Positions 11,200 through 12,319 of a DNA stretch of 14,574 nt are shown one piece after another. Every line of letters begins with the position of its first letter. Position 1 is the first letter of the stretch. Made by a program: the position numbers and the translations under genes. The notes under the pieces are model-generated. The model made no database searches and had not been told where the DNA came from. It saw only the letters and a program-made list of their open reading frames with translations. This DNA comes from a virus (taxonomy: Duplodnaviria > Heunggongvirae > Uroviricota > Caudoviricetes), in IMG/VR virus record IMGVR_UViG_2526164634_000018; one strand, given 5' to 3'.

Positions 11200-11209
11200 T
11201 CCTCACACT

Positions 11210-11242
11210 CCATAAACAACAAAGCCGCCCAAAAGGCGGCTC
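11210..11242 (-). terminator. Putative Rho-independent terminator downstream of the lipoprotein moron
   Basis: On the minus strand, hairpin AGCCGCC-TTTTG-GGCGGCT (11223..11241) followed by T-rich TTGTTGTTTAT; sits between the moron stop (11266) and the J start (11199). Confidence 0.5.
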
Positions 11243-11265
11243 ATGAGTTACGACAGGATTAACTA

Positions 11266-11604
11266 TTATTTACATGCATTAACACTATCAGCAAAAATTT
11301 TTGGCGTTAATGCTGGTACACGTTCATAAAGAGTAAAACTACTGCCATTTCCTGCTTTTTTGATATCAAGCACAACATCATATCCCCCCATAGCCTGTGG
11401 AACTAAAAGGCTTACCCCATTCTCAATAGGAAGGGATGTTATAGGTGTTCCATTACCAGCCCATTGTCTGGATATGCAGCCTGACAATTCATCAATATTT
11501 TTTAATGAATTACCTTCCATTACAGGTTTTCCGGATTTTACGTAATCCAAAGATTTACATCCTGTTAAGGCAATAATCGTGCAGAATAAAATCGTTTTGT
11601 TCAT
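11266..11604 (-). CDS. Predicted lipoprotein of unknown function (~112-aa precursor), moron between tail genes I and J
   Basis: ORF MNKTILFCTIIALTGCKSLDYVKSG...: hydrophobic signal peptide with lipobox LTGC, residue after the Cys is Lys. Region 11250..11680 is visibly AT-rich against flanking GC-rich tail genes. Start at ATG 11604 preferred over the track start at 11616 (non-ATG). Confidence 0.7.
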   Translation of the reverse strand: MNKTILFCTIIALTGCKSLDYVKSGKPVMEGNSLKNIDELSGCISRQWAGNGTPITSLPIENGVSLLVPQAMGGYDVVLDIKKAGNGSSFTLYERVPALTPKIFADSVNACK

Positions 11605-11677
11605 ATAGCTAACCAATAGAATAATTATCAGTGTTCGATATAAATATTAAATCAGTTAGAACATGAGTAAAATAATA

Positions 11678-12319
11678 TTACCGCCCAATTACCACAACCT
11701 GACCACCATCCCCTTCATCTGCCGTGCTGATCTCCTGAGATGCCACACGTGACCCCACGCGCATTTCACCGTACAGAACAGGCAGGACATTGCCCTGGGC
11801 AACCATGTTATCCAGTGAGGAGAAATAGGTGTTCTGTTTGCCGTTATCCGTTGTCTGTGTACGGGGAGTTCTGGCTTTCGGTGCCAGCATCTGCGCCACA
11901 CCACCAAGCGTCATCGCCGCACCCATTGAAAAGAGAATGTCACTGAAAGCGATACTGATCCCCGGCATCCAGATTGCCGTAGCAATCAACGCCGCACCCA
12001 GCACCGCCTGAAACACACCGCCACTTTTTGCTCCCGCAAGACGCGGCACGATGTGGATCACGGCACCATTTGCCAGCGGCTCATTAAGACGGGATGATAA
12101 TTCGGTTTCTCCTGCATCCCGCCCGGCAATCCGTACCTGATACCAGCCATCGCTCAGTTTCTGACGAAACGCCGGGAGCTGTGTGGCCAGTGCCCGGATG
12201 GCTTCAGCCCCCGTTTTCACACGAAGGTCGATGCGGCGGCCAAATCGTTGCAAATCCCCGTAAAGGCAGATGCGTGCCATGCCCGGTGACGCCAGAGGGA
12301 GTGTGTGCGTCGCTGCCAT
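11678..12319 (-). CDS. I: Tail assembly protein I, 213 aa
   Basis: N-terminus MAATHTLPLASPGMARICLYGDLQRFGRRIDLRVKTGAEAIRALATQLPAFRQKLSDGWYQVRIAGRD and C-terminus ...GNVLPVLYGEMRVGSRVASQEISTADEGDGGQVVVIGR match lambda gpI as I recall it; overlaps K by 103 nt as in lambda. Confidence 0.9.
   Translation of the reverse strand: MAATHTLPLASPGMARICLYGDLQRFGRRIDLRVKTGAEAIRALATQLPAFRQKLSDGWYQVRIAGRDAGETELSSRLNEPLANGAVIHIVPRLAGAKSGGVFQAVLGAALIATAIWMPGISIAFSDILFSMGAAMTLGGVAQMLAPKARTPRTQTTDNGKQNTYFSSLDNMVAQGNVLPVLYGEMRVGSRVASQEISTADEGDGGQVVVIGR

What the first reader, a model, noticed from the sequence alone, without database searches (positions are those of the whole stretch)
11200..11680. AT-rich lipoprotein moron with its own terminator between tail genes I and J
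In lambda, I and J are separated by about 60 bp. Here the gap is ~480 bp and holds a lipoprotein gene (signal peptide, lipobox LTGC, Lys after the Cys) followed by a hairpin plus T-tract terminator, in a region much more AT-rich than the flanking tail genes. That is the signature of a horizontally acquired, independently expressed moron. Phage-encoded lipoproteins such as T5 Llp and phi80/HK022 Cor act in superinfection exclusion by masking a receptor, so that is a reasonable hypothesis, but I do not recognise this protein and its function is unknown. The AT-rich 73-bp spacer upstream (11605..11677) could carry a promoter; I could not pick out a convincing -35/-10 pair by eye.
Basis: partly seen in the sequence, partly recalled or inferred. 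Interest (0 to 1): 0.65.

Follow-up and report, generated by a model that had tools for sequence, protein, structure and literature searches.

The report
Lipoprotein moron in prophage tail genes
An E. coli lambda-like prophage carries an extra, AT-rich gene for an exported outer-membrane lipoprotein between tail genes I and J; it belongs to an uncharacterised phage gene family that moves between slots of tail gene clusters, and its guessed role in blocking other phages is untested.

Summary
On the minus strand a 478-bp gap separates tail gene I (11678..12319) from the J start (11199). It holds a 112-aa ORF (11266..11604) with a canonical lipobox, GC 0.36 (leader 0.22) against 0.56-0.57 in the flanks, then a hairpin with a T-run. 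Lambda-type phages have a 60-bp gap here. The gene is real. It has a full-length match to phrog_914 and its lipobox and two further cysteines are conserved. E. coli alleles show purifying selection, and it occurs in 337 of 5,426 complete E. coli genomes. Relatives sit co-oriented in four tail-module junctions (I|J, K|I, T|H, M|L), and their phylogeny is decoupled from the flanking tail genes, so this is a mobile cassette. Two corrections. The hairpin is homologous to the one in lambda's own I-J spacer, so the insert did not necessarily bring it. No convincing promoter was found, so independent expression is unproven. The protein is not a Cor, Llp or Bor homologue; its fold resembles Flpp3 and the BamC N-domain. 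Relative phiKO2 gp19 is already annotated as a putative moron, and a Serratia phage relative was proposed as a Cor analogue. Superinfection exclusion remains the best guess. J here is also split by an IS66-family element.

The parts
11266..11604 (-). Lipoprotein gene (112 aa, stop codon included); member of phrog_914, the phiKO2 gp19 family
   Evidence: Translation. phrog_914 match, E 7e-33, full length. Homologues at 50-62% identity in Klebsiella, Kluyvera, Enterobacter and Jejubacter. E. coli alleles show 10 synonymous against 6 nonsynonymous polymorphic sites.
11557..11604 (-). Signal peptide plus lipobox (MNKTILFCTIIALTG|C16); Lys at +2
   Evidence: PS51257-type pattern match. Of 131 size-filtered family members, 121 have the lipobox and none of those has Asp at +2. 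Cys16 is invariant in 39 aligned sequences.
11605..11677 (-). AT-rich 73-bp leader (GC 0.22) between the I stop codon and the lipoprotein start; no convincing promoter
   Evidence: Best candidates are TTTACT-17-AATATT and TTTAAT-16-GATAAT (8 of 12 each). Alleles differ by one T in a T-run, giving 72 or 73 nt.
11243..11265 (-). Trailer between the stop codon and the hairpin; the 3' end of the inserted DNA
   Evidence: Alignment to lambda-type junctions loses homology here.
11212..11242 (-). Terminator-like hairpin (stem 11242..11222) plus interrupted T-run; homologous to the hairpin in lambda's I-J spacer
   Evidence: N15 and phiKO2 have annotated putative terminators at this junction.
11678..12319 (-). 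Tail assembly gene I (upstream neighbour)
   Evidence: PF06805, E 4e-24.
11091..11199 (-). 5' fragment of tail tip gene J (36 codons plus one base), ending at the IS target-site duplication
8387..11090 (-). IS66-family insertion sequence (2,704 bp) splitting J; the 8-bp duplication GGTTGAAG lies at 11098..11091 and 8386..8379; tnpA and tnpB are frameshifted
   Evidence: It is 97.3% identical over its full length to the IS66-family element in L015.
5008..8378 (-). Remainder of J. Joined to the 5' fragment it gives 3,480 nt, a 1,159-aa J like the intact J next to this gene in other genomes
   Evidence: It is 83% identical to lambda J overall and 47% over the last 170 aa.

Best explanation
Shown: about 435 bp of AT-rich foreign DNA (11243..11677) lies between the stop codon of tail gene I and the ancestral I-J hairpin of a lambda-like prophage. 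It carries one gene for a small exported lipoprotein of the phrog_914 / phiKO2 gp19 family.

Inferred from sequence rules: the precursor is exported by Sec, lipidated on Cys16 and cleaved by signal peptidase II. Because residue +2 is Lys and not Asp, the Lol system should send it to the inner leaflet of the outer membrane. The roughly 96-residue alpha/beta domain would then face the periplasm. It is probably stabilised by a Cys43-Cys111 disulfide.

Inferred from position: the gene is co-oriented with the late operon and no terminator lies upstream of it. It is therefore transcribed with the tail genes during lytic growth. Expression from the repressed prophage would need a promoter in the AT-rich leader, and only weak candidates exist.

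Inferred function, my best guess and untested: the lipoprotein alters the cell envelope so that phages can no longer infect productively. The most likely route is inactivation of the outer-membrane receptor from the periplasmic side, as T5 Llp and Cor do. That would exclude superinfecting phages from a lysogen. During lytic growth it would stop progeny from adsorbing to debris.

I put about 0.9 on 'mobile moron encoding an outer-membrane lipoprotein' and about 0.4 on the exclusion function. The stated confidence refers to the function.
For: Insertion: lambda-type phages have a 60-bp I-J gap and lack this DNA.

Composition: GC is 0.36 (gene) and 0.22 (leader) against 0.56-0.57 in the flanks. 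Relatives in other slots are also below their flanks, 0.41-0.44 against 0.49-0.53.

Real, selected gene: the lipobox and two further cysteines are conserved across 39 aligned and about 120 retrieved homologues. E. coli alleles show 10 synonymous against 6 nonsynonymous polymorphic sites, and 3 of 69 copies are frameshifted.

Exported, not a virion part: PS51257-type lipobox, with no Asp at +2 in 121 members.

Mobile cassette: in 96 loci the gene sits at I|J (68), K|I (14), T|H (8, plus one cut at the contig end) or M|L (1), always co-oriented with the tail genes. Further lineages add K|I in Hafnia, Serratia and Yersinia, and a slot next to the integrase.

Decoupled phylogeny: Klebsiella L006 against phiKO2 gives L/K/I 84/94/73% identity but lipoprotein 25%. 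E. coli against L027 gives tail genes 33-36% but lipoprotein 62%.

Analogy for function: the T|H slot is where HK97's gp15 exclusion moron lies, and Cor and Llp are lipoproteins that disable receptors. HK022 carries annotated morons at K|I and I|J, and Cor after J. A relative, Serratia phage OS31 p54, was independently proposed as a Cor analogue.
Against: There is no homology to any characterised exclusion protein. Pfam and PADLOC give nothing. Cor's profile, phrog_1119, is not hit, and hhalign of the mature regions gives probability 1.9%. No Llp or other informative chain appears among sequence or fold matches to solved structures.

No promoter was demonstrated.

The gene shows no specific link to a receptor-binding allele. 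The J C-terminal type next to it matches at 80% coverage or more in 3,348 of 5,426 genomes, against 337 genomes with the lipoprotein. Relatives also sit beside very different J proteins of 1,067 to more than 3,300 aa.

One homologue, in Shimwellia, is chromosomal and lies next to ecotin.
Confidence: 0.4

Rival explanations
1. Post-adsorption block. The periplasm-facing lipoprotein does not mask a receptor. Instead it interferes with the incoming lambda-like tail tip, for example the tape-measure protein, the K peptidase or channel formation. This would resemble HK97 gp15 or T4 Spackle, which act after adsorption.
For: The family is tied to lambda-like H-M-L-K-I-J modules whatever the size or type of J. 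The commonest slot is immediately downstream of K, which has JAB and NlpC/P60 domains. One slot is the gp15 site. There is no specific link to a J receptor-binding allele.
Against: There is no direct evidence. Location in a tail module may only reflect where insertions are tolerated. Lipoprotein alleles differ greatly (25%) between nearly identical tail modules, which argues against a conserved tail-tip target.
Confidence: 0.15
2. Lysogenic-conversion factor for the host, unrelated to phage. The outer-membrane lipoprotein would change envelope properties such as serum or complement resistance, stress tolerance or adhesion, in the manner of lambda Bor/Iss, or like the Francisella virulence lipoprotein Flpp3.
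Against: There is no sequence match to Bor/Iss or any Pfam family. The fold similarity is generic, at 6-13% identity. All but one of the sampled lineages are phage-borne and lie inside late operons. No promoter was demonstrated for expression in lysogens.
Confidence: 0.2
3. Late-gene helper for the phage's own lytic cycle that is neither exclusion nor host benefit, for example modulating the envelope or lysis timing. It would be expressed only by read-through of the late operon.
For: The gene is co-oriented with the late operon in every tail-module locus examined, with no upstream terminator and very short upstream gaps (33-35 bp) in K|I relatives. No promoter was found.
Against: It is absent from most lambdoid phages and from about 96% of E. 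coli I-J junction matches (349 against 8,624 places), so it is dispensable. It is not in a lysis cassette and has no reportable Pfam match, spanin families included.
Confidence: 0.1
4. A structural or assembly component of the tail tip.
For: It is almost always found among tail-tip genes.
Against: A signal peptide with a lipobox sends the protein out of the cytoplasm, where tails assemble. Most lambda-like phages lack it. Its position within the module varies.
Confidence: 0.02
5. A hitch-hiking or decaying ORF with no current function.
For: Three of 69 E. coli copies are frameshifted. The ribosome-binding site is weak by eye. This prophage is itself defective.
Against: Synonymous changes exceed nonsynonymous ones (10 against 6). 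The lipobox and cysteines are conserved down to about 22% identity. AF2 gives a confident fold, pLDDT 83.7.
Confidence: 0.03

Closest known systems
Klebsiella phage phiKO2 gp19 and the phrog_914 family (also Escherichia phages Fraca and LMessi, and Serratia phage vB_SspS_OS31 p54)
   Same: Same protein family. The window protein hits phrog_914 at E 7e-33, and phiKO2 gp19 and the Fraca protein hit it at E 2.5e-23 and 2.8e-25. The family profile hits phiKO2 gp19 in a small local search. All are roughly 111-aa lipoproteins with the same conserved cysteines, inside a lambda-like tail module, followed by a hairpin terminator. The phiKO2 record already calls gp19 a 'putative moron gene product', and OS31 p54 was proposed as a Cor analogue.
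   Different: Identity to the window protein is only 26-31%. Those genes sit in the K|I slot, whereas the E. coli gene sits in I|J. No member has been tested experimentally as far as I could find.
Cor (HK022, phi80, N15, T1; phrog_1119), the lipoprotein that inactivates FhuA
   Same: A small phage-encoded lipoprotein with a conserved C-terminal cysteine, encoded in the tail-fibre region of lambdoid phages and annotated as a moron in HK022.
   Different: No detectable homology: phrog_1119 is not hit, and hhalign of the mature parts gives probability 1.9%. Mature Cor is about 60 aa against about 96 aa here. Cor lies downstream of J, not upstream.
T5 Llp, the lipoprotein that blocks FhuA from the periplasmic side
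   Same: An outer-membrane lipoprotein encoded next to the receptor-binding protein gene. It prevents superinfection and loss of progeny on debris (plus my own knowledge).
   Different: No sequence or fold match was found in solved structures. Llp is shorter, and T5 is a virulent phage.
HK97 gp15 moron (T|H slot) and the HK022 morons gp20 (K|I), gp22 and srb (I|J)
   Same: The same kind of element: extra genes with deviating composition wedged between conserved tail genes at the same junctions. gp15 is a proven exclusion protein and, like this family, has cellular homologues.
   Different: Unrelated sequences. gp15 is an inner-membrane protein, not a lipoprotein.
Francisella Flpp3 (DUF3568) and the N-terminal domain of BamC
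   Different: Identity is 6-13% and there is no Pfam or profile match. The same scores are reached by unrelated KA1, DUF302 and Bet v 1-like domains, so this is fold-level resemblance only.

Membership tests
Moron (as defined for HK97/HK022) | Extra DNA between two genes that are adjacent in related phages | tested here: met
   Lambda's I-J gap is 60 bp; here it is 478 bp. All 107 phage records matching the junction lack the insert.
Moron (as defined for HK97/HK022) | Base composition different from the surrounding genes | tested here: met
   GC 0.36 (gene) and 0.22 (leader) against 0.56-0.57 in the flanks.
Moron (as defined for HK97/HK022) | Own promoter | tested here: inconclusive
   The consensus scan finds none on the coding strand. 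The best ad hoc pairs match 8 of 12 positions in very AT-rich DNA. K|I relatives have only 33-35 bp upstream.
Moron (as defined for HK97/HK022) | Own terminator | tested here: inconclusive
   A hairpin with a T-run follows the gene, but it is homologous to lambda's own I-J hairpin. Relatives in other slots each have a hairpin terminator directly after the gene.
Moron (as defined for HK97/HK022) | Expressed from the repressed prophage | not testable with these tools
   Needs RNA-seq or 5'-RACE on a lysogen.
Moron (as defined for HK97/HK022) | Horizontal mobility independent of the flanking genes | tested here: met
   Four different junctions are used, and the lipoprotein phylogeny is decoupled from L, K and I.
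Bacterial lipoprotein (PROSITE PS51257 type) | Positively charged n-region, hydrophobic h-region and a lipobox [LVI][ASTVI][GAS]C within the first 35 residues or so | tested here: met
   MNK-TILFCTIIA-LTGC matches the pattern. Of 131 size-filtered homologues, 121 match.
Bacterial lipoprotein (PROSITE PS51257 type) | Actual lipidation, and outer-membrane sorting (no Asp at +2) | not testable with these tools
   Lys is at +2 here, and no Asp occurs at +2 in 121 members. This is a rule-based inference only.
phrog_914 / phiKO2 gp19 family | Full-length profile match | tested here: met
   E 7.3e-33 over residues 1-112 of 112 and profile positions 1-118 of 118. phiKO2 gp19 and the Fraca protein hit the same profile.
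Cor superinfection-exclusion family (phrog_1119) | Sequence or profile similarity of the mature protein | tested here: not met
   phrog_1119 is not hit at E <= 1. hhalign of the mature regions gives probability 1.9%. BLASTP gives E 3-10.
Cor superinfection-exclusion family (phrog_1119) | Inactivation of FhuA-dependent phage adsorption | not testable with these tools
   Needs plating and adsorption assays.
T5 Llp | Sequence or fold similarity to Llp | tested here: not met
Lambda Bor/Iss; o-spanin Rz1 | Pfam family match; for Rz1, a location in the lysis cassette with an i-spanin partner | tested here: not met
   No Pfam hit at E <= 1. The gene lies among tail genes, not lysis genes.
DUF3568 (Flpp3) | Pfam or sequence match in addition to fold similarity | tested here: not met

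The most novel reading that the evidence does not exclude
phrog_914 lipoproteins are a new class of envelope-level exclusion factor. They would be specific for lambda-like tail tips and act from the periplasmic face of the outer membrane on the incoming tip, not by masking one receptor. That would explain three observations: the family is found almost only inside H-M-L-K-I-J modules, it hops between junctions, and it sits beside J proteins of very different size and type.
Probability: 0.15. Interest if true: 0.6.

Novelty: new member of a known kind. Interest (0 to 1): 0.33.

Why it matters
Morons in tail operons are an established source of superinfection-exclusion and host-fitness genes. This family is common: it is in about 6% of complete E. 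coli genomes, its exact sequence is indexed in 6,742 blocks of the public assembly collection (more than 1,000 contigs), and relatives occur in Klebsiella, Enterobacter, Yersinia, Serratia and Hafnia prophages. It has never been characterised. If it blocks phage entry, it would affect the host range of lambda-like phages and phage-therapy susceptibility in Enterobacterales. It would also add a third unrelated lipoprotein solution beside Cor and Llp. The cassette-like movement between four junctions of one gene module is a clean example of how morons spread. As it stands, this is a well-supported but ordinary accessory gene of unknown function.

Tried and rejected
1. Pfam, NCBIfam and PADLOC scans gave nothing useful. 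The only hit was a VirB7 signal-peptide match at E 0.08. A Pfam scan of 39 relatives was also negative.

3. Cor homology is rejected. The apparent similarity is limited to the signal peptide, the lipobox and a C-terminal Cys.

4. I looked for a link between the lipoprotein and a particular J receptor-binding allele. All 10 sampled neighbours share one J type at 93-100% identity. But that type matches at 80% coverage or more in 3,348 of 5,426 genomes, so the test does not discriminate.

5. The promoter search with the built-in scan and a looser scoring across six contexts found nothing convincing or conserved.

6. An Rfam scan of the whole window gave no RNA family.

7. Literature searches for the accession, for phiKO2 plus lipoprotein, and for exclusion lipoproteins found no experimental work on this family. 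The phiKO2 genome paper could not be opened under the PMC id I recalled.

The genome-contig scan returned only the Kluyvera locus.

9. The source strain could not be identified. No complete E. coli genome in the collection has this J::IS junction.
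Full report
**What is in the window.** The late (tail) genes of a lambda-like E. coli prophage run on the minus strand.
- Pfam confirms the C-terminus of H (13989..14555), L (12965..13663), K with JAB and NlpC/P60 domains (12217..13002) and I (11678..12319).
- J starts at 11199 with the lambda-like MGKGSSKGHTPREA....
- After codon 36, J is interrupted by a 2,704-bp IS66-family element (8387..11090). 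The element is flanked by an 8-bp duplication, GGTTGAAG.
- The rest of J (5008..8378) is open. Joined to the 5' fragment it gives the same 1,159-aa J that lies intact next to this gene in other genomes.
- lom (4341..4940), a truncated side-tail-fibre gene (3254..4189) and a second IS66-family copy (9..2707) follow.

**Check of the observation.**
- The I-J gap is 478 bp (11200..11677), against 60 bp in lambda.
- It contains a 112-aa ORF (11266..11604, minus strand) beginning MNKTILFCTIIALTGC|KSLD.
- GC is 0.36 in the gene and 0.22 in the 73-bp leader, against 0.57 in I and 0.56 in J.
- A hairpin with a 9-bp stem and a T-run lies at 11242..11212.
- The consensus scan finds no sigma-70 promoter on the coding strand. 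A looser scoring gives only TTTACT-17-AATATT and TTTAAT-16-GATAAT, each matching 8 of 12 positions, in DNA so AT-rich that such matches are expected.

**It is a real, selected, exported protein.**
- The protein matches PHROG family phrog_914 (unknown function) over its full length, E 7e-33. It has no Pfam, NCBIfam or PADLOC assignment.
- The word-indexed search found 20 relatives in E. coli, Jejubacter, Kluyvera, Klebsiella and Enterobacter.
- An exhaustive profile search found 125 clusters at E <= 1e-3, nearly all 105-125 aa long.
- In a 39-sequence alignment reaching down to about 21% identity, the only invariant residues are Cys16, Cys43 and Cys111.
- Of 131 size-filtered homologues, 121 have a PS51257-type lipobox. 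None of these has Asp at +2, and 113 carry two further cysteines, one within the last four residues.
- By the established Lol-avoidance rule this predicts an outer-membrane lipoprotein. The cysteines suggest a disulfide formed in the periplasm. Both are inferences.
- Among 69 full-length E. coli copies there are 10 synonymous and 6 nonsynonymous polymorphic sites, and three copies are frameshifted. This indicates purifying selection.
- AlphaFold2 gives a confident model (pLDDT 83.7) with a four-to-five-stranded sheet packed against two helices. The helices carry Cys43 and Cys111.

**It is an insertion, and a mobile one.**
- All 107 phage records that match the I-J junction contain only the flanks. 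No record covers 80% of the query.
- In 5,426 complete E. coli genomes the junction region matches in 4,282 genomes (8,624 places). The insert itself occurs in 337 genomes (349 places) at 95-100% identity. RefSeq annotates it as a hypothetical protein, WP_001332187.1.
- I classified the genes flanking family members in 96 loci from assemblies, IMG/VR and phage records. The gene lies between I and J in 68 (all of the E. coli type), between K and I in 14, between T and H in 8 (plus one cut at the contig end), and between M and L in 1. It is always co-oriented with the tail genes.
- More distant members (23-38% identity) are found in several places. They sit in the K|I slot in Hafnia and Serratia fonticola. 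In Yersinia they sit directly upstream of I, after a 4-kb accessory island. In an unidentified lineage the gene lies at the prophage end next to the integrase. In Shimwellia blattae it lies in an ordinary chromosomal setting next to ecotin.
- Pairwise identities show that the lipoprotein does not share the history of its neighbours.

| Pair compared | L / K / I identity | Lipoprotein identity |
|---|---|---|
| Klebsiella L006 vs phiKO2 | 84 / 94 / 73% | 25% |
| E. coli module vs L027 | 33 / 36 / 35% | 62% |

- In 36 of 45 pairs the lipoprotein is the least conserved of the four proteins. All exceptions involve the E. coli (I|J) or Enterobacter (T|H) copies, which points to transfer of the cassette between unrelated tail modules.

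First, the hairpin is not evidently 'its own' terminator. From the hairpin to the J start codon the window aligns with lambda, mEp460 and PhiR63_1:
- window: GAGCCGCCTTTTGGGCGGCTTTGTTGTTTATGGAGTGTGAGGAATG
- lambda: AAACCGCCTGCGGGCGGTTTTGTCATTTATGGAGCGTGAGGAATG

The alignment includes one compensatory G-C / A-T pair change. N15 and phiKO2 records annotate a putative terminator at the same I|J position with no gene in front of it. The foreign DNA is therefore about 435 bp (11243..11677), placed between the I stop codon and a pre-existing hairpin, and it replaces about 20 bp. Even so, relatives in the K|I and T|H slots examined each have a G+C-rich hairpin and T-run directly after the gene. A 3' terminator is therefore a regular feature of these cassettes. 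Whether lambda's I-J hairpin is a relic of a lost cassette cannot be decided here.

Second, independent expression is unproven. No promoter is demonstrable, and K|I relatives have only 33-35 bp upstream. What follows from position alone is co-transcription with the late operon.

**Comparison with what is known.**
- The junctions concerned are classical moron sites. HK97 gp15 lies in T|H. The HK022 record annotates 'moron gene product' at K|I (gp20), at I|J (gp22, srb) and for Cor after J.
- A family member, phiKO2 gp19, is already annotated 'putative moron gene product; similar to Xanthomonas gene XCC2962' with a putative terminator.
- The protein is nevertheless not a Cor family member. Cor is phrog_1119, which the window protein does not hit, and profile-profile comparison of the mature parts gives probability 1.9%.
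- Nothing in the PDB resembles it by sequence.

**Mechanism.**
- Shown: a mobile cassette with deviating composition, encoding a conserved protein with a lipoprotein signal, located in late operons of lambda-like prophages.
- Inferred from rules: lipidation at Cys16, sorting to the outer membrane, and a disulfide-stabilised domain in the periplasm.
- Inferred from position: transcription with the tail genes.
- Inferred by analogy only: action on the envelope that prevents phage infection. The precedents are Cor, Llp and gp15, all small envelope proteins encoded in or near tail or receptor-binding gene clusters. The strong divergence of alleles within near-identical tail modules is what one expects of a gene in an arms race.
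- I put this at about 0.4. The rivals are a host-fitness or virulence lipoprotein (0.2), a post-adsorption block of the tail tip (0.15), a late-cycle helper (0.1), a structural role (0.02) and a non-functional ORF (0.03).
- The attempt to link the gene to a receptor-binding allele was uninformative. The neighbouring J type is the commonest in E. coli, matching at 80% coverage or more in 3,348 of 5,426 genomes. Its C-terminal domain is 47% identical to lambda's LamB-binding domain, so its receptor is unknown.

**Verdict.** The feature is real and the moron-lipoprotein reading is sound. It is a new member of a known kind, at a known moron site, in a family already catalogued and already suspected of the same function. 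What this analysis adds is the definition of the family, its cassette-like movement among four tail-module junctions, the ancestral nature of the I-J hairpin, and the exclusion of Cor, Llp and Bor membership. Function remains untested. Interest is modest (0.33).

Noticed in passing
window 8387..11090 (target duplications 8379..8386 and 11091..11098): J is split after codon 36 by a 2,704-bp IS66-family element with an 8-bp duplication, GGTTGAAG. Its tnpA and tnpB are each split across reading frames, while the 523-aa transposase ORF is intact. No complete E. coli genome in the collection has this junction, so the insertion looks strain-specific and recent. J is otherwise open.
   Followed up: yes
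window 9..2707 (+): A second IS66-family copy lies in inverted orientation to the first. A 1,520-nt arm is 97% complementary, with 5.7 kb between the arms. Its 8-bp flanks (ATGTTCAT and TATTTTCG) are not a target duplication, which suggests an adjacent deletion or rearrangement. The side-tail-fibre gene 3254..4189 (-) keeps only its N-terminal domain.
   Followed up: partly
window 11212..11242; L023 (lambda) 1466..1493; N15 15307..15330; phiKO2 15298..15320: A terminator-like hairpin just upstream of J is conserved across lambda, mEp460, N15 and phiKO2, whether or not a gene precedes it. One compensatory pair change separates the window from lambda. Its role inside an antiterminated late operon is unclear. 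It could be a relic of lost cassettes or a landing pad for them.
   Followed up: partly
L003 (phage LMessi) 4647..4994; L002 (Fraca) 4725..4994: In the K|I slot of these Hendrixvirinae phages a second, unrelated small lipoprotein gene sits directly upstream of the phrog_914 gene. Its product begins MRKFLSILACSLIIVGC... and belongs to phrog_2320, of unknown function. The Fraca annotation starts it too far downstream and so misses the signal peptide.
   Followed up: partly
L100-L102 (Yersinia enterocolitica prophages), about 1400..6000: The K|I slot holds a roughly 4-kb accessory island before the lipoprotein gene. It carries Arc-type repressors and Bro-N, KilA-N, ANT and pRha antirepressor-like genes, and in one case a SocA_Panacea gene. 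This looks like an immI-like region embedded in a tail operon.
   Followed up: no
L103 / L104 (Shimwellia blattae chromosome) 6001..6339: A 38%-identical family member lies in a non-phage chromosomal setting, between a YidB-family gene and ecotin and near copCD-yebY. This may be the cellular source of the phage cassette, as YebO is for HK97 gp15.
   Followed up: no
L015 4377..6893: In another E. coli genome an IS66-family element is inserted in the leader of the same lipoprotein gene, 22 nt upstream of its start codon. IS66 elements therefore hit this prophage region repeatedly.
   Followed up: no
window 11605..11677: The leader is polymorphic among E. coli copies for one T in a T-run (72 or 73 nt), and a few point differences separate five leader alleles. 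The T-run forms the start of the -35-like TTTACT hexamer.
   Followed up: partly
window 11360..11545 (+): A 61-aa antisense ORF inside the lipoprotein gene is called as a gene in one public assembly (L013 7060..7245). It is probably a spurious call in AT-rich DNA.
   Followed up: no
P0091 (1,047 aa) and P0115 (782 aa): Two long repeat proteins score weakly (E about 1e-5 to 1e-4) against the family profile in 5-6 stretches. These are probably low-complexity or repeat artefacts rather than true relatives.
   Followed up: no
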